Shown here in pieces: positions 41,129 through 49,205 of a stretch of 64,000 bases of DNA (the first letter of the stretch is position 1; the number at the start of each line of letters is the position of its first letter). A model generated the notes under the pieces. It was not told where the DNA came from and ran no database searches. It saw nothing but the letters and a program-made list of their open reading frames with translations. Made by a program: the position numbers and the translations under genes. This DNA is from an uncultured Clostridia bacterium (lineage in GTDB: Bacteria > Bacillota > Clostridia > TANB77 > UBA1234). The stretch is from the NCBI GenBank assembly GCA_934149405.1, contig CAKPEV010000001.1:552-64551 (forward strand), in the 5' to 3' direction.

Positions 41129-41242
41129 ACTATGCCCCCTTCCTCGTGTAAACCATTGATAGTTTACAACGGTTTTGCCTATTTGTCAAGCATTTTCTTA
41201 AGTTTGGGCAAAAAATAATTTCAACTATATCACATATTGATA

Positions 41243-41288
41243 ACAAAAATTACCTCATAGAGTTAGTTCTCTATAAGGTAATTTGATT
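41243..41288 (-). terminator. Terminator ATTACCTTATAGAG-loop-CTCTATGAGGTAAT plus TTTTTG
   Basis: 13-bp near-perfect inverted repeat and U-tract downstream of the 41353-41907 gene. Confidence 0.55.
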
Positions 41289-41352
41289 ATGTGTTAACTT
41301 TTATTATGTACTTTAATTTGCCAAATTTAGGTTTTTCATAGCTATTATTTTC

Positions 41353-41907
41353 TTAATCTGGCATTTCCATCATGAGTTTTATAAAACCTATGAAAAAAGC
41401 CCAACACAAGCCTATAATCAAAATGAATATAGCAAATCCTACTATTATAAAAGAACCTATATAATCCCATGCCGCTTCAAGACTCGTTCCACCTTTTTTT
41501 CTTGTTTTAGATATTATGGGCTTTTCAGCTACATGGATTGGCCCCATATTTGCTTCAGCCTCTTCTTCACAAGATGATAATTGCTCTTCTGACAGGTTGT
41601 TTGAAGATAACATCATTTTTCTTACTTTTCTTTTAACATCCCACAAATATAATTTATTAGCAGTAAACAAATAAATAAAAAATCTTATTATAGGATATGC
41701 AAACTTTATTCCAAGATCAACTGTAATTCCAAAAAGAACGGTTGAGCCGTACAATAATATAAATCCTAGCAAATATGATTTTCTATAAAAGAACCATATC
41801 GGGCCCAAGAATGCACCTAATATTGCTGCAGGCCAATTTAGTTTTTTATTTACAATTTTATCTGCATTTTTGCCTATGTATTCTAGTACTAATTTTTCTT
41901 CCATTTG
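41353..41907 (-). CDS. DUF2628-like small membrane protein. Likely start MEEKLVLEY.
   Basis: NWPAAILGAFLGPIWFFYRKSY motif and hydrophobic segments. Tentative family call. Confidence 0.45.
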   Translation of the reverse strand, partial: QMEEKLVLEYIGKNADKIVNKKLNWPAAILGAFLGPIWFFYRKSYLLGFILLYGSTVLFGITVDLGIKFAYPIIRFFIYLFTANKLYLWDVKRKVRKMMLSSNNLSEEQLSSCEEEAEANMGPIHVAEKPIISKTRKKGGTSLEAAWDYIGSFIIVGFAIFILIIGLCWAFFIGFIKLMMEMPD

Positions 41908-41981
41908 TTTTCCACCTTTCTTTTGGTTGTGTTCGCTAATTATAATATTTTTCATATTTTAATATTCTGCTATCAATTGAT

Positions 41982-42060
41982 TTTTATGGAGCACACTGTG
42001 CTCCGCTGCATGCCTACCTTTAATATTGAGTTAACTCTATTTGGTTTTTATGGAGCACGC
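41982..42060 (-). promoter_or_regulatory. Two tandem copies of the recurring leader motif TTTTATGGAGCAC(A/G)C. The first lies inside the perfect palindrome GGAGCACA-C-TGTGCTCC.
   Basis: Same 15-mer also at 23117-23131 and 46559-46573. All four copies sit upstream of minus-strand genes in the same orientation. Confidence 0.4.
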
Positions 42061-42067
42061 TTACATT

Positions 42068-43739
42068 TTACATTGTATTTTGTTTTTCGGCAACTTTTTT
42101 CATTCTTTCTATATACATTTTTGCATCTTCTGGCAAATCGAAGTTTGGAACATGTTTTGTCTTATAACTTAACGGATTTGTATTTGCACTTGTTTCGTCT
42201 ATTATGTCTTCTATTTCAAGCACAGCTTGCGCAAACATTTGAATATTTTTTTCATCGTTTTTTTGAACATAGTATGAAAATCCTTCACTTAAAAATGATA
42301 AGTATTCTAGATAATTTCTCATTACATATTTATTTAATAATAATCTTTTTTTCTGATAATATATGGCCTCATCATATTTCTTTTCATTTACTAATTTGTT
42401 AGAAAAAGCCTCATATATGCCACTTATATTCTTGTTGTATTTATATGCCATGTTTGCTATTTCAAGTTGTTCTGATGGCGATGTAACAGTATATAATTCT
42501 TCTTGGAGCGCATCTGTATAAAATGGCAAAATGCTATATGCTGTTTTATAATCTTTAATTTCATAAGCTAATGCTGCAATTGCAACTATAAAGAAACTAC
42601 ATAATAATGCACCTATCACTACATTAAACACCTTTTTCGATAAAAATGTTTTTGTATTAAATTTCGACATGATTATGAATAACAATATGAAATATATATA
42701 TTCAAAGTCTATATCTATCATCGAATGGCCTAATATTAAAATCATTATTAGTCTACTGATGACATTTTGTTTTTTATCAAAGAAAGTTAATACGGCAAAA
42801 ATGCTCAAGCAAATCATTGGGACTATACCAACATCAAGCATTATTTGTAGCAATGAGCAATGCACATATTTTGCATCATATATTCCTGTTTGTATTTCTG
42901 TTTGCTTATAGTACCAACCCATATATCCATACCCAAATGGATTATTCTTTATCATATCTATTGCATCTTTATAATAAAGTAATCTTGTTGTCATTTCTCC
43001 ACTTTGCATCATGTCTTTTGTTATTCTTTTTTCCATGTGAAATAGATTGTTTGCTACTAATAATCCGCAAGACTGAAATCATAATTATTACAAATATTCT
43101 TTTTTTGTTTTGATGAGAAAGAAACAATAAAGATATTTCACATAGTACCATTAAAATGATGATAGCTCTACTATTAGTCATTATTATTCCTGTGATTAGT
43201 ATGCCTGTACAAATATGTGCTCTTATGCCTTTCTTTTCTTGAAACAATTGTACTACCAAGGCTACTACTAAAAATAAACCATATGAGTTGGCATACTCAA
43301 ATAAACCTTGTAACCTATCATTAAAAAAATACAAATCTGATTTAAAAATCATTGAAAGAAAACTTATGATTACAGATACTGTCCCAGACATAGGAATTAC
43401 ATTTAAAATATGTACTACATCATCATCTTTATATTCGTACTGCAAGAATAAAATTGTAAAAAGGATTATACTTGAATTTTTTATAAAACCTATTACAGCC
43501 ATTCCTTTATCTACAGCATAAAAGCTAGTTACAATAAATGCAATTATATATACACTTAAAAGATAGAATTTAGTATCTTTGGGCAATATAATTTTTCTAT
43601 TTTTATTGATTTTGTATATTAAACCAATTAAACAGATTATGCTTAACATGACATTCGAGAATAAGCTTAAAAAACCTCCAAATATCGGCGCCATGAATAT
43701 AATTATTTTTATCAAATCTATTTTTCTACTTTTTTGCAT
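42068..43739 (-). CDS. O-antigen ligase (Wzy_C)-like polytopic membrane protein with a C-terminal TPR-like domain. Two overlapping ORFs imply a frameshift near 43045-43060.
   Basis: Upstream ORF is all TM helices (TNSRAIIIL). The downstream frame opens upstream of its ATG with GLLVANNLFH continuing a helix, then RLLYYKDAIDMIKNNPFGYGYMGWYY (ligase-like). C-terminal helical repeats. Confidence 0.55.
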
Positions 43740-43800
43740 ATTATACCTTTCTATTTTTTCATAAGAGCTGCCTTAAACAAGACAGCTCTTATGTTAGTGT

Positions 43801-46521
43801 TTATTCATCTAATTTAATTTCAATGTATGAATTCATGTTCTCTTTTAAATATATTAAAACACTCTGATGAGGAATCTCCACTCCGCTATCACTTATATAT
43901 CCTAAATAAGCATCACCGACAAAAAGCTCCTCTTCGGTTGCATTTACGAGATTTTTATCACTATCATAATAAACAAATTTTTCATAGGAATCTCCAAGGT
44001 TTATATACTCGCTCGATCCTTTTTTATAATAATAGACATCTCTGAAAAGATTATTAGAAGTTTTGATTTCTTTATATATACTTCTATCATTTTTATCAAT
44101 TACATACACTGTATTTCCCATAAAATACTCTGTTGTTCCATCAACTTTTGCATCAAAATCTATTCTTCCGCCAATAATTTGAAAAGCTTTATCTTCTGGT
44201 ATTATTCTTCTATAGTTTAGCACCCTTGCCGATGGTGTATATAAACATTCAGCATAAGAAATTAATTTGCTTTGCCAATCTTCTCCTAAATCAAGAGTTC
44301 CTTTTTTACTATTATAATTGTATCTTAAAGGAACTATATCCTTTATGCAATACTTAACATCTAAATTTTTAGCTAAAGCTATTGTTAAAAACTTACCATT
44401 ATATGTTGAATTGCTTTCTTGTTCAGAAAAATGCAGACCATTTTTACTAGGCTTTTTATAAGCTGACATATTATCTTCACTATTTCCATAGCAATATACA
44501 AAATCTTTATAATTAGGACCTAAATATACTGCTAAAGAGGCTTGGAAAAAATGTACCGAAGCAAAAGGATTTTTTACTTTAATTTTCACATAGTTGTTAG
44601 GATTCTTTTTATTTAAAATGTAAAAATAATATACTGTACGATCTCCTTGATAGTTACAGGATAACACTCTTTGCGATGGTGTATACATAGAATTTTTAAA
44701 ACTTGAAGAAAGCACGTCCGAATCTATGGCAGTATATATATAATCTTTCCAATTTTCACCTAAATCCACAGTGTAGGTTTCATTATCGTATGTATACAAT
44801 ATGTTTGACATATTATAACATACTCTTGAATTAGGATTAGCCTTTAATGAAATCCACACGTACATTGCATTGAATGTTGAATTTTTGTCTCTGTTATTTG
44901 AATTAGAATAATTTATCGTCTTTTTGTTTGGTGTATATTTTTCAAAATCAGAAAAACCATCAACATCATTTCCGTAACTAAACAAAAACTTAGTGTAATC
45001 CTTGCCCAAATATATTGTGCCACTCATTCTATCAACTTTTATTTCTGCGAAAGGATTTTTGGTTTCTATTTTAACAGAATCATTTATATTATTTTTTTTC
45101 ATTACAAGCACATAATTTCCGCAAAAAACATTTTTAGATTTTACCAAGATTTCTCTTTTGCATTCACCCTCAACATTATACTTCGAAGGTTCAAAATAAA
45201 AAGTTCTTTCAAGCTCTTCTGTATATGTTAAATATCTTTGCGACGGAGTATACTTAGTACCACGCTCTATACTTGCGTTATACTCATCTAAATAAACATA
45301 TTGATTCCAATTCTCCCCTAAGTCAAGTATACCTGTATTTACATCATATTTGATATCTGTTTTACTTGTATTAGTTTCTTCATTTTCCTTTGTTTGAGTT
45401 TCAATCTCAAAGTATGTATAACATGCTTTATTTTGTTTTAGAGCCACAAAAATATATTTCTTACCAAATGTTGTTCCACTATTATCTTTGGCATCTTCTG
45501 AGTAAGTTAATATTTTTTTGCTTGGTGTATAAGATATTTTCACATCATCTAGTGAATCTGAATATCCATATTTAAAATTCTTATAACCGCTTCCTAAATT
45601 TAATGTATTTTTCTCGCTGTCATAAGATACATCATCAAATGGGTTAACTATTTTGATTTTTACATAATTATCTTCATGTTGTGCATCTATTATAAAAAGA
45701 TATTTGCCACTAAAATAATCATTTCCTTCTTCTAATTCATTAAAAGTCAAAACTTGACTAGATGGTTTTCTTATTTTCTTTATTTTAGTGCCATATGAAT
45801 ATTTATATTTTTTCCAGTCCTTACCTAAGTCAACTGTACCTGTCTCTTCATCATATTCAAATGTAGGAAATTTTATTTTTTCTTCATCTAATACTATCTT
45901 TTCTAATACACTTAGCGAATTATGCATCAATTGGCAAACTTCTGCTCTTGTTAATTTGCCTTTTGGATTGAATGTGCCATCTGTGTTTCCTCTCATCAAT
46001 TCATTTTCAACAGCTATTGCTACATACTTTTTTAAATTTTCTGATATATTTTCTTTATCAGAGAATTTATTTAATGTAGAAAGTTTGTAAGAAGAATCTT
46101 GAAGACCAGCTGCCATTACAACAGAAACTGCTACATCTTCTCTCACAGCTTCATCTAATGGTCTGAAAAATAGTGTATCGTTTTCTCCTCTGTATGCTGA
46201 CAAATACTTACTAGCAACTTCGATATAATTATATGCCCAATGTTCTTTTTTAACATCTTGGAACGAAATATTATTTTTCTCCTTTAAATTTAATGTCAAA
46301 ACCAAAATTTTCGCAAACTCTGCTCTTGTTATTGATTTATTGGGCATGAACGTATTATCTGGATATCCAGACAATATTTTTTTAGTTGTCATGTCCATTA
46401 TTACACTATATGCCCAATGACTTTTATTAAGATCTGAATAATCTACTGCAAAAACGTTAGAAGAAAAAATCATGATTAAGCATATTAAAAATAAAAATAA
46501 AATTTTAAAATTCTTTTTCAT
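43801..46521 (-). CDS. SLH-domain S-layer-associated protein with about seven tandem ~100-aa modules carrying the conserved core (V/L)(D/N)LG.(D/N)(W/Y).(K/N)(Y/F).(Y/F)...YTPS...L.Y. Paralogous in its SLH region to 9286-11607.
   Basis: Signal peptide. SLH repeats. Repeated motif visible in the translation. Start placed at MKKNFKI, after an AAGAGGGG RBS. Confidence 0.65.
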   Translation of the reverse strand: MKKNFKILFLFLICLIMIFSSNVFAVDYSDLNKSHWAYSVIMDMTTKKILSGYPDNTFMPNKSITRAEFAKILVLTLNLKEKNNISFQDVKKEHWAYNYIEVASKYLSAYRGENDTLFFRPLDEAVREDVAVSVVMAAGLQDSSYKLSTLNKFSDKENISENLKKYVAIAVENELMRGNTDGTFNPKGKLTRAEVCQLMHNSLSVLEKIVLDEEKIKFPTFEYDEETGTVDLGKDWKKYKYSYGTKIKKIRKPSSQVLTFNELEEGNDYFSGKYLFIIDAQHEDNYVKIKIVNPFDDVSYDSEKNTLNLGSGYKNFKYGYSDSLDDVKISYTPSKKILTYSEDAKDNSGTTFGKKYIFVALKQNKACYTYFEIETQTKENEETNTSKTDIKYDVNTGILDLGENWNQYVYLDEYNASIERGTKYTPSQRYLTYTEELERTFYFEPSKYNVEGECKREILVKSKNVFCGNYVLVMKKNNINDSVKIETKNPFAEIKVDRMSGTIYLGKDYTKFLFSYGNDVDGFSDFEKYTPNKKTINYSNSNNRDKNSTFNAMYVWISLKANPNSRVCYNMSNILYTYDNETYTVDLGENWKDYIYTAIDSDVLSSSFKNSMYTPSQRVLSCNYQGDRTVYYFYILNKKNPNNYVKIKVKNPFASVHFFQASLAVYLGPNYKDFVYCYGNSEDNMSAYKKPSKNGLHFSEQESNSTYNGKFLTIALAKNLDVKYCIKDIVPLRYNYNSKKGTLDLGEDWQSKLISYAECLYTPSARVLNYRRIIPEDKAFQIIGGRIDFDAKVDGTTEYFMGNTVYVIDKNDRSIYKEIKTSNNLFRDVYYYKKGSSEYINLGDSYEKFVYYDSDKNLVNATEEELFVGDAYLGYISDSGVEIPHQSVLIYLKENMNSYIEIKLDE

Positions 46522-46695
46522 ATATTCCCCTCTTTTCAATATAGATTGTGCTCTACAATTTTATGGAGCACACTTTGTTGGCTGATGCTAGTTGTCTTGC
46601 CTATTTTAACGTGCAAAAAGCTAGCATTATGTTTTACATAATACTAGCTATCTCTTATTTTATTTGAAGTTTTTTTATTTATTAAGCAATATATC

Positions 46696-46717
46696 GTGTG
46701 TGTGTGTGTGTGTGTGT
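46696..46717. repeat. (GT)11 dinucleotide microsatellite
   Basis: cgtgtgtgtgtgtgtgtgtgtgttac read directly, about 175 bp upstream of the SLH gene start. Confidence 0.9.
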
Positions 46718-46780
46718 TACAGCCTCAAGGGTTTTAGCGTTCATATCTTTTTTCCTTTCTTAGTCCATCATTATTTTGTA

Positions 46781-46880
46781 TTATATACTAACCAGTTTTA
46801 CTTTGCAACCACATTTCTCTTACTACTTCACCTGTTTCTGTATCAATTATATACTAACCAGTTTTATTTCGCAATCACAT
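46781..46880. repeat. Two copies of a 34-bp direct repeat, TTATATACTAACCAGTTTTAYTTYGCAAYCACAT, 66 bp apart
   Basis: Copies at 46781-46814 and 46847-46880 differ at 3 positions. Confidence 0.8.
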
Positions 46881-46970
46881 TATATTCTGTACTCGCAAAA
46901 GGCCCTCAAGTAATAATTTGAAATCCGCATATAATAAATAATTATAGTTTGCTAGTATTTTTAAGCCAAA

Positions 46971-48713
46971 TTACGATAGTTTTATATGCACTTCTCTTAA
47001 TTGTTTTTGTGTTACTTCTCCTGGTGCTCTCATCAATAAATCTTCTGCATTTGCTGTCATAGGGAATGCTATTACCTCTCTTATGCACTCTTCACCTAGT
47101 AAAAGCATTACTATTCTATCAACTCCTGGTGCCATTCCAGCATGAGGTGGTGCACCAAATTTGAAGGCTTCATATAAAGCTCCAAATTTCGTTTGTAATT
47201 CCTCTTTTGTATATCCAGCTATCTCAAATGCCTTTTCCATTACATCGATTCTGTGATTTCTTACAGCTCCCGATGAAAGCTCAACTCCATTACATACGAT
47301 ATCATATTGATATGCCTTAATCTCCAAAGGATCTTTGTTTTGTAAATCATCAATTCCACCTTGTGGCATTGAAAATGGATTGTGCATAAAATCTATTTTG
47401 CCTTCATCATTTCTTTCATACATTGGAAAGTCTGTAATAAAGCACAATTCAAATTTGCTATTATCTATCAAATCCATTCTTTTTCCGAGTTCTGTCCTAA
47501 TTTCGCCAGCCAATTTGTCTACAAATTTTGGTGCATCACTTATGAAAAATAAAACGTCGCCTTGTTTCAAAGAAAGTAATTTCTTTATTTCTTCAGATTG
47601 CTCATCAGTAAAATACTTGGCAATCGGACCTTTGTACGTCATATCCTCTTCTACTTCTATATATCCAAGACCTTTCATACCGATTCCAAGAGCATATTCT
47701 AACATTTTTTCAAAAAATGATTTTGACATCTTTGTACAATCTGGCACAACAATACCTCTTACAGGTTTTCCTTTAAATGGTTTAAATTCGACTGTTTCAA
47801 AGAATTTTGTCAAATCCTCTATCACAAGTGGATTTCTTAAATCTGGTTTATCTGTTCCGTACTTTTTCATAGCCTCTTCGTATGGAATTCTTCTAAATGG
47901 TTTTTCAGAAACTTTTTTATCACTAAATTTAGAAAATATATCATATAATACCTCTTCAGCCGTATCAAAAACATCTTCTTGAGTGGCAAATGCCATTTCA
48001 AAATCCAATTGATAAAACTCTCCAGGAGAACGGTCTGATCTTGCATCCTCATCTCTAAAACAAGGTGCTATTTGAAAGTACTTATCAATTCCCGATGTCA
48101 TAAGCAATTGTTTAAATTGTTGCGGTGCTTGTGGCAAAGCATAAAACTTTCCTTTATGCTTTCTTGATGGAATTATATAATCTCTTGCACCTTCAGGCGA
48201 AGATGAAGTTAAGATAGGTGTTGTTATCTCTGTAAAGCCCATATCTTCCATCTTTCTTCTCATATAACTTACTACTTTTGATCTAAATAATATCTTGTCT
48301 TGAACTTTTTTGTTTCTTAAATCTAAAAAACGATATTTAAGTCTGACATCTTCTTTTGTCTTTAATGATTCTGCAACCTCAAATGGCAATGCACTTTGGC
48401 ATTCTCCAAGTATTTCTAATTTGTCAGCTAAAACCTCAACTTCGCCTGTTGAAATTTTTAAATTTATTGTGTCTTCGTCCCTTTCTATAACTTTTCCCAT
48501 TACTGATATAACAGTTTCTCTGTGAACATTTTTCAACATAGTTTCATCATGTATAACAATTTGAGAGACGCCATATTGATCTCTCAAATCTATAAACATG
48601 ACGCCACCATGGTCTCTAATGTTTTCAACCCAACCTGCTAATTTTAAAACTTTGCCAATATCACTTTTGCTAATTTGACCGCATGTGCAATCTCTGTAAA
48701 TGTTTCCTTTCAT
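46971..48713 (-). CDS. aspS: Aspartate--tRNA ligase
   Basis: Class II aaRS motifs. N-terminal OB anticodon-binding domain. 580 aa. Confidence 0.95.
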   Translation of the reverse strand: MKGNIYRDCTCGQISKSDIGKVLKLAGWVENIRDHGGVMFIDLRDQYGVSQIVIHDETMLKNVHRETVISVMGKVIERDEDTINLKISTGEVEVLADKLEILGECQSALPFEVAESLKTKEDVRLKYRFLDLRNKKVQDKILFRSKVVSYMRRKMEDMGFTEITTPILTSSSPEGARDYIIPSRKHKGKFYALPQAPQQFKQLLMTSGIDKYFQIAPCFRDEDARSDRSPGEFYQLDFEMAFATQEDVFDTAEEVLYDIFSKFSDKKVSEKPFRRIPYEEAMKKYGTDKPDLRNPLVIEDLTKFFETVEFKPFKGKPVRGIVVPDCTKMSKSFFEKMLEYALGIGMKGLGYIEVEEDMTYKGPIAKYFTDEQSEEIKKLLSLKQGDVLFFISDAPKFVDKLAGEIRTELGKRMDLIDNSKFELCFITDFPMYERNDEGKIDFMHNPFSMPQGGIDDLQNKDPLEIKAYQYDIVCNGVELSSGAVRNHRIDVMEKAFEIAGYTKEELQTKFGALYEAFKFGAPPHAGMAPGVDRIVMLLLGEECIREVIAFPMTANAEDLLMRAPGEVTQKQLREVHIKLS

Positions 48714-48739
48714 TTTTTATACCTCCAAATTAAGTTATT

Positions 48740-49118
48740 TCAAGGACGAAAAATCCCTAGCATGCAAACTTTATGCATACTAGGGACGATTTTTCCGTGG
48801 TACCACCCTGATTTAATATTCCAAAATATAAGGTTTAATACTACAAAAAACCTAGCATTGTAACAATGCTAGGGACGAATTTTTTCGCGGTACCACCCAA
48901 TTTCAATATCATGGATATCCTTAAGTAGCCTTTAACGCCAGCTATGCGAACTTGCTTTGCACAAGCCTACTCGAAAGGTGTTCTTTCATCAGTTTCGTTT
49001 ATGAAAACTCTCAGCTACGGTTAATTTTCACTCTCTTTAAACTACCTCTAATTACTTTTCCTTCGTCAACGCATTTTCAATGTGTTTCAATTTTAACATT
49101 TTATATAGTATATGTCAA
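48740..49118 (-). promoter_or_regulatory. T-box riboswitch leader of aspS. It carries its own TTGACA-17-TAAAAT promoter, Stem I with an AGAGAG box and a putative GAU specifier. It ends in two tandem antiterminator/terminator modules.
   Basis: Minus-sense T-box sequences TTGGGTGGTACCGCG (48886-48898) and AGGGTGGTACCACGG (48795-48809). Each is followed by a hairpin plus U-run (CCTAGCATTGTTACAATGCTAGG-TTTTTT and CCCTAGTATGCATAAAGTTTGCATGCTAGGG-ATTTTT). Confidence 0.75.
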
Positions 49119-49205
49119 ACAAAATTTTATTCTTTCAAAACATAGCCATGGTTAATACTTAAATTTGTTGTCAGCCTTACCATTCTAATTCTAGTAAACA
49201 GCTAA

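What the first reader, a model, noticed from the sequence alone, without database searches (positions are those of the whole stretch)
48740..49118. aspS T-box leader with a duplicated antiterminator/terminator domain but a single Stem I
Leader order, in minus sense, is:
- promoter (TTGACA-17-TAAAAT)
- Stem I with AG box and a plausible GAU Asp specifier
- T-box TTGGGTGGTACCGCG + terminator 1
- about 35 nt
- a second T-box AGGGTGGTACCACGG + terminator 2
- aspS RBS

The second module is a diverged copy of the first (GGACGAATTTTTTCGCGGTACCACCC versus GGACGATTTTTCCGTGGTACCACCC, with different terminator stems). It has no room for its own specifier domain. Tandem complete T-boxes are known. A 3'-domain-only duplication raises the question of how one bound tRNA could stabilise two antiterminators in sequence. 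Alternatively the second is a decaying copy or a plain terminator.
Basis: partly seen in the sequence, partly recalled or inferred. Interest (0 to 1): 0.55.

Follow-up and report, generated by a model that had tools for sequence, protein, structure and literature searches.

The report
Partially tandem asparagine T-box leader
The aspS leader is a tRNA-sensing T-box with one tRNA-reading arm followed by two successive "is the tRNA charged?" terminator switches, a layout that is already recorded and widespread but whose mode of action is still unknown.

Summary
The duplication is real. On the minus strand, a strong promoter (49118-49090) is followed by one complete T-box (Rfam RF00230, 49078-48868, 93.1 bits). 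A second, diverged ~90-nt copy of only the 3' part follows: a Stem III-like hairpin, T-box/antiterminator 48808-48783 and its own terminator 48787-48749. Then come the ribosome-binding site and aspS. There is no second Stem I.

One detail is wrong. The specifier is AAC (Asn, 48982-48980), not GAU. Relatives have aspS-gatCAB operons, so this leader regulates the tRNA-dependent asparagine pathway.

The second module is not a decaying copy. Seven aspS lineages (AspRS 73-83% identical where measured) keep it while the spacer varies from 90 to 293 nt and the terminator stems change.

The architecture is common. A pattern scan found more than 60 leaders in front of about 20 gene families, with 2-5 modules each.

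It is also already recorded. [quoted passage not shown]

My best guess (about 0.5) is that the single Stem I serves both modules in turn. This would give two serial charging checks and a tighter off state.

This is a new member of a known kind, of moderate interest.

The parts
49090..49118 (-). Sigma-70-type promoter: TTGACA (49118-49113), 17-nt spacer with TG extension, TAAAAT (49095-49090).
   Evidence: 11 of 12 matches, TG present; sequence.
48868..49078 (-). The one complete T-box leader: Stem I, Stem II, IIA/B, Stem III and antiterminator 1.
   Evidence: RF00230 full-length match 1-219, 93.1 bits (gathering score 93), E=4.4e-19.
48970..49072 (-). Stem I, the only one. It has a GA/K-turn base, a specifier loop with AGUA/GAA S-turn, an AGAGAG bay (49036-49031) and a distal loop GCUGAGA.
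   Evidence: CM alignment. No other Stem I-like match in 48650-49200 at E<=10.
48979..48982 (-). Specifier AAC (Asn, 48982-48980) plus the conserved 3' purine A48979. GAA (48983-48981) overlaps it by one base.
   Evidence: Position in the CM alignment directly before the basal helix strand CCUUUCG. GAAAGAACACC is conserved in L127, L128, L131, L146, L148 and L149.
48933..48967 (-). Stem II and Stem IIA/B region, as aligned by the covariance model.
48905..48919 (-). Stem III of module 1 (GAUAUC-CAU-GAUAUU), preceded by UUAAGG and followed by GAAAUU.
   Evidence: CM alignment; parse.
48872..48898 (-). Antiterminator 1: A1 GGG/CCC, bulge UGGUACC (48895-48889), A2 GCGAA/UUCGU with a basal G-U pair.
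   Evidence: -5.6 kcal/mol.
48845..48873 (-). Terminator 1: 10-bp stem CCUAGCAUUG/CAAUGCUAGG, loop UUA, U6. It shares CC with helix A1.
   Evidence: (-12.5 kcal/mol).
48814..48843 (-). Spacer holding a Stem III-like hairpin of module 2 (AUAUU-UUGG-AAUAU at 48829-48816, or the longer UAGUAUU/AAUAUUA), followed by UAAAUCA. There is no purine-rich 5' flank and no room for a Stem I.
   Evidence: The homologous hairpin is kept in L127, L128 and L146.
48783..48808 (-). Antiterminator 2: A1 GGG/CCC, bulge UGGUACC (48805-48799), A2 ACGG/UCGU with a basal A-U pair.
   Evidence: RF00230 positions 146-219, 30.3 bits, E=1.2e-5, when searched alone; (-2.7 kcal/mol); conserved in orthologs.
48749..48787 (-). 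Terminator 2: 13-14-bp stem (G)UCCCUAGUAUGCA/UGCAUGCUAGGGA(U), 7-nt loop, U5. It takes the whole 3' strand of helix A1.
   Evidence: (-22.0 kcal/mol).
48738..48753 (-). Conserved tail UUUUUCGUCCUUGAAA: an orphan copy of the antiterminator 3' half, lying between terminator 2 and the ribosome-binding site. Role unknown.
   Evidence: Present in window, L127, L128 and L146 at variable distance from terminator 2. It can pair with the SD region (-8.9 kcal/mol).
48711..48726 (-). Shine-Dalgarno GGAGG (48726-48722) and the aspS start codon (48713-48711).
46971..48713 (-). aspS: bacterial-type aspartate--tRNA ligase, 580 aa.
   Evidence: NCBIfam NF001750, 777.6 bits (cutoff 443).

Best explanation
This is a transcription-attenuating T-box leader of the 'partially tandem' type.

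One tRNA-identity reader (Stem I, specifier AAC, so tRNA-Asn) is followed by two acceptor-end modules in series. Each module has a Stem III-like hairpin, a T-box/antiterminator with the UGGU-ACC bulge, and an overlapping intrinsic terminator. RNA polymerase must pass both terminators to transcribe aspS.

Proposed mechanism:
1. The single Stem I serves both modules one after the other.
2. Uncharged tRNA-Asn held on Stem I first docks its NCCA end on module 1.
3. Once the polymerase has passed terminator 1, the more stable terminator-1 hairpin replaces antiterminator 1. This frees the acceptor end, or the tRNA exchanges on Stem I.
4. The acceptor end then docks on module 2.

The net effect would be two serial checks of charging and multiplicative suppression of tRNA-independent read-through. 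That means a tighter off state and a steeper response for an AspRS that, with GatCAB, makes Asn-tRNA-Asn.

Shown here: the anatomy, the mutually exclusive folds, conservation in orthologs, and recurrence elsewhere. Inferred: that module 2 depends on tRNA, that it uses the one Stem I, and the hand-over itself.
For: 1. **Single Stem I, two switchable modules.** There is one full RF00230 hit. Module 2 alone matches the Stem III/antiterminator part of the model. Each antiterminator overlaps a more stable terminator: -5.6 vs -12.5 and -2.7 vs -22.0 kcal/mol.

2. **Selection on module 2.** W, L127, L128, L146, L148, L149 and L131 all carry a second T-box.
   - AspRS is 73-83% identical in the five lineages fetched by protein.
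   - T-box-to-T-box spacing is 90, 182, 124, 293, about 183, 135 and 170 nt.
   - GGGUGG(U/C)ACCACG is kept in six lineages; L148 has one bulge change.
   - A1/A2 pairs are kept: 89.5% of cells paired against 37-55% when the partners are slid.
   - Terminator stems differ in sequence but all fold and are followed by a U run.
   - A plain terminator would not need the 7-nt bulge.

3. **The variable bulge base in module 2 is U or C (L131, L148, L149).** Both can pair with G73, as expected for tRNA-Asn (own knowledge).

4. **In L131 module 1 has lost its A2 helix and terminator, while module 2, 170 nt further on, is intact.** There the one Stem I can only work with the distal module.

5. **Later modules look dependent rather than autonomous.** In 47 non-redundant leaders the RRRxG-Stem III motif occurs in 70% of first modules but 20% of later ones (shuffle background 11-14%). 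Stem III averages -5.4 vs -2.6 kcal/mol. PMC7583486 states that an antiterminator without Stem III does not bind tRNA appreciably.

6. **Recurrence.** More than 60 leaders with 2-5 modules were found. All 16 that could be assessed with Rfam have a Stem I-containing T-box ending at module 1. The last terminator is more stable than the first in 28 of 40 (p=0.0014), which fits a fail-safe role.

7. **Asn logic.** aspS is followed by gatC-gatA in relatives. A gatCAB leader (L045) also has an AAC specifier and two modules.
Against: - No experiment exists. PMC7583486 says the mode of action of partially tandem T-boxes is unknown.
- The same review describes the tRNA-discriminator complex of transcriptional T-boxes as very stable and not exchanging. 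Release of the acceptor end within the roughly 100 nt to terminator 2 is therefore not assured.
- Module 2 lacks the 5' purine string and has an A-U rather than G-U basal A2 pair. Either could weaken binding or charge discrimination.
- Antiterminator 2 is weak (-2.7) against a -22 kcal/mol terminator.
- Covariation inside the antiterminators is almost nil because they are nearly invariant. The structural support there is conservation, not compensation.
- The genome survey was ascertained by requiring two intact T-box cores. The Wilcoxon test is not corrected for phylogeny.
Confidence: 0.5

Rival explanations
1. Fail-safe attenuator. Module 2 is in practice a constitutive second terminator that trims all transcripts, leaky or legitimately antiterminated. 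Its T-box sequence is not used for tRNA binding.
For: - Terminator 2 is very stable (-22.0 kcal/mol) and antiterminator 2 weak (-2.7).
- Later modules mostly lack the Stem III purine motif.
- Distal terminators are on average stronger.
Against: - The 7-nt bulge and the A1/A2 strands of module 2 are kept in seven lineages while spacers and terminator stems turn over.
- A plain terminator imposes no such constraint.
- Arrays of up to five such terminators would nearly silence the gene if none could be antiterminated.
Confidence: 0.15
2. Autonomous second sensor. Module 2 captures the 3' end of any uncharged tRNA with a compatible discriminator base directly from solution, without Stem I. This would add a general uncharged-tRNA input to the Asn-specific one.
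For: - The discriminator domain is described as necessary and sufficient to sense aminoacylation (PMC7583486).
- Module 2 scores as a Stem III/antiterminator unit.
- Its function tolerates spacers of 90-293 nt.
Against: - Module 2 lacks the 5' purine string that the same review calls indispensable. Later modules have it at near-background frequency.
- Known transcriptional T-boxes need Stem I for fast tRNA capture.
- No Stem I-less T-box leader was seen among the 16 assessable loci.
Confidence: 0.12
3. Two tRNAs. The specifier loop contains overlapping GAA (Glu) and AAC (Asn), as in the Clostridium acetobutylicum two-codon T-box. The two modules would serve the two tRNAs.
For: - GAAC is conserved in all aspS-clade leaders.
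- The C. acetobutylicum element controls the transamidation operon and binds tRNA-Asn and tRNA-Glu (PMC4052509).
- Relatives have aspS-gatCAB operons.
Against: - Both modules have the same UGGU bulge, so nothing distinguishes the two tRNAs at the acceptor end.
- Partial tandems occur with ordinary Phe, Tyr, Trp, Leu and Ile specifiers.
- The gatCAB leader L045 has UAAC with no overlapping GAA.
Confidence: 0.08
4. Neutral or decaying duplicate. Module 2 is a recent slippage product on its way to loss.
For: - It is a ~90-nt tandem direct repeat.
- Copy number varies from 2 to 5 among close relatives in the Bacillus cereus group and Lysinibacillus.
- One copy has decayed in L131.
Against: - The two copies are diverged (81-89% over short blocks, with different terminator tops), yet both are intact.
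- The pair is kept across AspRS divergence down to 73% identity.
- In L131 the module that decayed is the first, not the second.
Confidence: 0.05

Closest known systems
Canonical transcriptional T-box leader (Rfam RF00230; e.g. Bacillus subtilis tyrS, glyQS)
   Same: - Stem I with K-turn, specifier loop, AG bay and distal loop.
- Stem II and IIA/B.
- Stem III.
- T-box bulge UGGN-ACC.
- Antiterminator competing with an intrinsic terminator.
   Different: A second Stem III-like hairpin, antiterminator and terminator follow the first, with no specifier domain of their own.
Partially tandem T-boxes, mentioned in Zhang 2020, WIREs RNA (PMC7583486)
   Same: One specifier domain with more than one antiterminator/terminator. 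The review states that their modes of action remain unknown.
   Different: The review gives no example in the text I could read.
Fully tandem (double or triple) T-boxes, e.g. trp operons, thrS/thrZ (PMC12452182, PMC9413887)
   Same: Serial terminators that must all be bypassed. [quoted passage not shown]
   Different: Each unit there has its own Stem I and binds its own tRNA. Here only 35 nt separate terminator 1 from the second T-box. PMC12452182 reports complete tandems only for thrS among aminoacyl-tRNA synthetase genes.
Two-codon T-box ('NT-box') of the Clostridium acetobutylicum transamidation operon (Saad et al. 2012, 2013; cited through PMC4052509 and PMC4574755)
   Same: - An Asn-responsive T-box in Clostridia controlling the tRNA-dependent asparagine pathway.
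- Overlapping GAA/AAC in the specifier loop.
- Relatives of the window organism have aspS-gatCAB operons.
   Different: I could not read the primary papers, so I do not know whether that leader has one or two 3' modules. In the window aspS is not followed by gatCAB.
Phe T-box of the NSS/SNF transporter of the Bacillus cereus group (family noted in PMC2494555)
   Same: One full T-box followed by extra antiterminator/terminator modules.
   Different: The modules are nearly identical ~88-nt repeats with 2-5 copies. The specifier is UUC and the gene is a transporter. The window's two modules are old and diverged.

Membership tests
T-box leader (RF00230) | Full-length match to the covariance model at or above the gathering score | tested here: met
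   93.1 bits against gathering score 93, model positions 1-219, E=4.4e-19. This is borderline on bits but full length.
T-box leader (RF00230) | Specifier codon followed by a purine at the 3' end of the specifier loop | tested here: met
   AAC-A at 48982-48979, directly before the basal helix strand. It is conserved in orthologs.
T-box leader (RF00230) | Antiterminator with a 7-nt UGGN-ACC bulge, mutually exclusive with an intrinsic terminator | tested here: met
   Met twice: 48898-48872 with terminator 48873-48845, and 48808-48783 with terminator 48787-48749.
T-box leader (RF00230) | Read-through induced by uncharged cognate tRNA | not testable with these tools
   This needs in vitro transcription or a reporter assay.
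Fully tandem T-box | A second complete unit with its own Stem I and specifier | tested here: not met
   - There is only one RF00230 hit, even at E<=10.
- The spacer is 35 nt.
- Orthologs also have one full hit each.
- L127 and L146 give weak second hits (39.8 and 34.6 bits); in L127 the alignment shows the Stem I positions deleted.
Partially tandem T-box (PMC7583486) | One specifier domain followed by two or more antiterminator/terminator modules | tested here: met
   The same layout occurs in more than 60 other leaders.
T-box discriminator domain (Li et al. 2019, as summarised in PMC7583486) | Stem III flanked by 5'-RRRxG and 3'-AA purines, next to the antiterminator | tested here: inconclusive
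   - Module 1: Stem III with UUAAGG before it and GAAAUU after it.
- Module 2: a Stem III-like hairpin and UAAAUCA are present, but the 5' flank is AACCUU or the U tract, with no purine string.
- Across leaders the motif occurs in 70% of first modules and 20% of later ones.
T-box discriminator domain (Li et al. 2019, as summarised in PMC7583486) | G-U wobble pair at the base of helix A2, the steric sensor of the aminoacyl group | tested here: not met
   This verdict is for module 2. Module 1 has G-U (G48888-U48875) and meets the feature. Module 2 has A-U (A48798-U48786). A-U occurs in 17% of first and 33% of later modules.
Two-codon Asn/Glu T-box (Saad et al. 2013) | Overlapping GAA and AAC in the specifier loop, upstream of transamidation-pathway genes | tested here: met
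   GAAC at 48983-48980. aspS is followed by gatC-gatA in L127, L128, L148 and L132-134. Dual tRNA binding itself is not testable here.

The most novel reading that the evidence does not exclude
The extra modules form a tRNA relay. One specifier domain holds (or re-loads) a tRNA whose acceptor end is interrogated by a series of 2-5 stripped-down antiterminators. These have dispensed with the Stem III purine latch and therefore dock differently from the canonical discriminator. This would make the T-box a processive, multi-checkpoint device with tunable copy number.
Probability: 0.35. Interest if true: 0.7.

Novelty: new member of a known kind. Interest (0 to 1): 0.45.

Why it matters
T-boxes are the best-understood case of one structured RNA reading another. 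How 'partially tandem' versions work is listed as an open question.

This locus and its relatives give a natural test series:
- two old, diverged modules behind one Stem I;
- spacers from 90 to 293 nt;
- a relative in which only the distal module survives;
- arrays of 2-5 modules in culturable Bacillus and Lysinibacillus.

If one Stem I serves several acceptor-end sensors, this is a cheap way to gain dynamic range and ultrasensitivity. It would also be a design principle for synthetic attenuators.

The corrected specifier matters for annotation too. An aspS gene under Asn control marks the indirect Asn-tRNA pathway in an uncultured gut Clostridia lineage.

Tried and rejected
- **Custom covariance model of the discriminator.** The MAFFT alignment of 37 first modules (A1) and RNAalifold recovered only A1/A2, not Stem III. 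I dropped the model and used an explicit motif parse with shuffle controls instead.
- **Concordance of the variable bulge base between modules**. Almost all are U, and the few mixed cases are U/C. This is uninformative.
- **Covariation count on the antiterminators of the aspS clade**. The pairs are nearly invariant, with one compensatory pair (GC to AU in module 1 of L128/L146). This supports conservation, not structure.
- **Pairing of the tail motif with the 5' strand of the Stem I base,** as predicted in the whole-leader MFE. I rejected it because the tail stays UUCGUCC when that strand changes in L128.
- **T-box 1 to T-box 2 pairing** (GUGGUACC with GGUACCAC). It follows from the near-palindromic T-box consensus, so it is not specific evidence.
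- **Literature.** Vitreschak 2008, Gutierrez-Preciado 2009 and Saad 2012/2013 are not held. Searches for phrases describing duplicated antiterminators or discriminators found nothing relevant.
- **Metagenome scan with a 19-nt Stem I word.** It gave only two relevant loci.
- **L129 and L130.** These turned out to be mosaic contigs and were not counted as lineages.

Full report
**What is there**

The leader is read on the minus strand. It starts with a near-consensus promoter, TTGACA-17-TAAAAT with a TG extension, at 49118-49090.

Rfam finds exactly one T-box in the 64-kb window. It lies at 49078-48868, covers model positions 1-219, and scores 93.1 bits against a gathering score of 93 (E=4e-19). 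A permissive search of 48650-49200 adds no second T-box hit, even at E<=10.

The downstream gene (48713-46971) is a bacterial-type aspartate--tRNA ligase (NF001750, 777.6 bits).

**The two 3' modules**

| Feature | Module 1 | Module 2 |
|---|---|---|
| Stem III or Stem III-like hairpin | 48919-48905 | within 48843-48814 |
| Antiterminator | 48898-48872 (GGG / UGGUACC / GCGAA...UUCGU / CCC) | 48808-48783 (GGG / UGGUACC / ACGG...UCGU / CCC) |
| Terminator | 10-bp stem 48873-48851, then U6 | 13-14-bp stem 48787-48753, then U5 |
| Antiterminator energy | -5.6 kcal/mol | -2.7 kcal/mol |
| Terminator energy | -12.5 kcal/mol | -22.0 kcal/mol |

- Both terminators are called by the consensus scan: 2 found against 0.3 expected.
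- In each module the antiterminator and terminator share strands, and the terminator is the more stable fold.
- The two modules are a diverged tandem duplication of about 90 nt. Direct repeats of 31, 18 and 14 nt, 81-89% identical, sit at 89-95 nt spacing.
- They contain the only two GGGTGGTACC in the window.
- When the stretch 48850-48735 is searched alone, module 2 matches RF00230 positions 146-219, that is Stem III plus antiterminator, at 30.3 bits and E=1.2e-5.
- Only 35 nt separate the U tract of terminator 1 from the second T-box. The hairpin fills that space, so a second specifier domain cannot fit.

**Correction of the specifier**

The 3' side of the loop reads GAAAG-AAC-A and runs straight into the basal helix strand CCUUUCG.

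The specifier is therefore AAC (Asn, 48982-48980), followed by the conserved purine A48979. GAA overlaps it by one base.

Two further observations fit Asn control:
- The string GAAAGAACACC is kept in every orthologous leader I recovered.
- In relatives, aspS is followed by gatC-gatA. This is the tRNA-dependent route to Asn-tRNA-Asn.

This is the same logic as the Clostridium acetobutylicum T-box that controls the transamidation operon and reads overlapping Asn and Glu codons (PMC4052509 and PMC4574755). I could not read the primary papers.

**Is the second module maintained?**

The window comes from an uncultured human-gut Clostridia species. Exact AspRS copies occur in Hadza and other gut assemblies. 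L107, a MAG labelled Eubacteriales, is 94-98% identical.

I collected leaders from AspRS homologues and from one metagenome word scan. T-box-to-T-box spacings and lineages are as follows.

| Lineage | AspRS identity to window | Spacing (nt) |
|---|---|---|
| Window species | - | 90 |
| L127 | 83% | 182 |
| L128 | 79% | 124 |
| L146 | not measured | 293 |
| L148 | 74% | about 183 |
| L149 | 73% | 135 |
| L131 | 73% | 170 |

- All seven lineages have one full T-box hit and no second Stem I.
- In L127 the spacer gives a weak second hit (39.8 bits) in which the Stem I positions are deleted and a Stem II-like hairpin remains. This hints at an originally larger duplication.
- The L146 spacer holds long perfect hairpins, which look like an insertion.
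- Across these lineages the module-2 core GGGUGG(U/C)ACCACG is intact in six. L148 has one bulge change.
- Helices A1 and A2 are kept: 89.5% of cells are paired, against 37-55% when the partners are slid.
- The Stem III-like AAUAU/AUAUU hairpin and the A-rich linker are kept in the window, L127, L128 and L146; L131 has a different, weaker candidate hairpin, and L148 and L149 were not examined for this.
- The terminator stems differ in sequence, yet all fold and are followed by U runs.
- In L131 it is module 1 that has lost its A2 helix and terminator, while module 2 is intact.
- More distant AspRS genes (72-73% identity; L132-L134) have no T-box at all.

This pattern excludes a decaying copy. 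It is also hard to reconcile with a plain terminator, which would not need the 7-nt bulge.

**How general is the layout?**

I scanned one genome per species with the pattern GGGTGGNACCNCG-N60-90-GGGTGGNACCNCG.

- After GC-rich protein-coding repeats were removed, 64 leaders plus the window have a terminator-like hairpin after every T-box core. They carry 2 to 5 modules each.
- They sit in front of about 20 gene families: SNF/NSS and SSF transporters, branched-chain amino-acid ABC components, DAHP synthase, chorismate mutase, TrpE, TrpD, IlvB-like, IlvD, Asd, DapA, ArgC, SerC-like and class I aminotransferases, an IleRS-like synthetase, GatC and AspRS.
- Specifiers include Phe, Tyr, Trp, Leu, Ile and Asn.
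- The genome records are labelled mainly as Bacillota (Bacillus cereus group, Lysinibacillus, Paenibacillus, Alicyclobacillus, Clostridium, Veillonellaceae), Chloroflexota and Synergistaceae.
- Of 18 loci tested with Rfam, 14 have a full T-box at the gathering score and two more fall below it (84.5 and 64.8 bits). In each, the match ends at the first module. The other two were not assessable because of the locus end or masked bases.
- L009 has two complete T-boxes followed by one extra module.

**Are later modules complete discriminators?**

According to PMC7583486, the acceptor-end sensor is Stem III with flanking purines (5'-RRRxG ... AA-3') plus the antiterminator. Without Stem III the antiterminator binds tRNA poorly. 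A G-U pair at the base of A2 is the steric sensor.

I compared first and later modules in 47 non-redundant leaders.

| Feature | First modules | Later modules |
|---|---|---|
| A1/A2 helices intact | all | all |
| RRRxG-hairpin-linker motif | 70% | 20% (shuffle background 11-14%) |
| Mean Stem III energy | -5.4 kcal/mol | -2.6 kcal/mol |
| Basal A2 pair is A-U | 17% | 33% |

The window's module 2 fits this picture. It has a hairpin and an AA linker, no 5' purine string, and an A-U basal pair.

Separately, the last terminator is more stable than the first in 28 of 40 leaders. The means are -19.2 and -15.9 kcal/mol (Wilcoxon p=0.0014, not corrected for phylogeny).

**Mechanism**

Both terminators must be bypassed, so module 2 has to be antiterminated when the gene is needed. 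Three facts point to later modules depending on the single Stem I rather than acting alone:
- they have a conserved tRNA-pairing bulge;
- they mostly lack an autonomous Stem III latch;
- in L131 only the distal module is left.

My preferred model is sequential service. The Stem I-held tRNA-Asn docks on module 1. After the polymerase has passed, the terminator-1 hairpin replaces antiterminator 1, or the tRNA exchanges on Stem I. The acceptor end then docks on module 2.

Leak through n terminators falls multiplicatively. If the tRNA exchanges between checkpoints, the response to the uncharged fraction also becomes steeper. That benefit is the one proposed for complete tandem T-boxes (PMC9413887), but without a second Stem I.

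Against this model, the reported stability of the tRNA-discriminator complex makes timely hand-over uncertain, and nothing has been measured. I put this model at about 0.5. The fail-safe terminator, autonomous capture, two-tRNA and neutral-duplicate models share most of the rest.

**Comparison with what is known, and novelty**

The leader is a member of the T-box family. It is not a fully tandem T-box, because the test for a second Stem I fails.

Two other reviews do not cover this layout:
- A 2025 survey of contiguous riboswitches counts only complete T-box tandems, and among synthetase genes finds them only for thrS (PMC12452182).
- A 2022 review of tandem riboswitch architectures lists no class with one sensor and several expression platforms (PMC9481103).

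The kind is therefore already recorded, and this aspS/Asn leader is a new member.
- the corrected specifier;
- the evidence that the second module is under selection;
- the 2-5-module arrays;
- the stripped-down nature of later modules;
- the L131 variant.

Interest is moderate. A specialist would not be very surprised, but the series of natural variants makes an acknowledged open question directly testable.

Noticed in passing
window 41220-46915: A 5.7-kb block directly after aspS is absent from the conspecific contig L107. The block holds three ORFs with no family match and a 912-aa SLH-domain protein at 43801-46539. In L107 aspS is followed after about 140 nt by the ylxM/ffh region. This looks like a strain-variable insertion.
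   Followed up: partly
window 48738-48753; also L127, L128, L146: The motif UUUUUCGUCC(C)UUGAAA is conserved between terminator 2 and the ribosome-binding site. It is an orphan copy of the antiterminator 3' half. It stays close to the ribosome-binding site in the window, L127 and L128, while its distance from terminator 2 varies. In the window it can pair with the SD region (-8.9 kcal/mol). It may add a translational layer or be a duplication scar.
   Followed up: partly
L129 and L130 (aspS 5' part): Both contigs are mosaics. The first ~650 nt of aspS are 97-100% identical to the window and the rest only 51-70%. They are assembly chimeras or recombinants. L130 also lacks the leader.
   Followed up: partly
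L010, L029-L031, L039, L049, L052, L057, L076, L083, L086, L093, L122, L123: The Phe (UUC) T-box of an SNF/NSS transporter in the Bacillus cereus group, Lysinibacillus and Paenibacillus carries 2 to 5 nearly identical ~88-nt antiterminator/terminator modules. Copy number differs between close relatives.
   Followed up: partly
L045 3380-3860 (minus): A gut Bacilli MAG has a gatCAB operon behind an Asn (AAC) T-box that also has two 3' modules. This appears to be an independent case in the same pathway.
   Followed up: partly
L146, between the two T-box cores (293 nt): The spacer contains three long, nearly perfect hairpins (stems of about 11-18 bp). This looks like an inserted repeat element inside the leader.
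   Followed up: no
L131 845-1015: The first module has lost its A2 helix and terminator, while the second, 170 nt downstream, is intact. This is a natural variant in which Stem I can only work with the distal module.
   Followed up: partly
window 48895-48888 and 48804-48797: T-box 1 (GUGGUACC) and T-box 2 (GGUACCAC) are complementary, and the whole-leader MFE pairs them around the terminator-1 hairpin. This follows from the near-palindromic T-box consensus. It could still sequester module 2 in transcripts that leaked through terminator 1.
   Followed up: no
L007 6663-7953: A CRISPR array (RF01315 repeats) lies next to the Clostridium ragsdalei T-box locus. It is unrelated to the finding.
   Followed up: no
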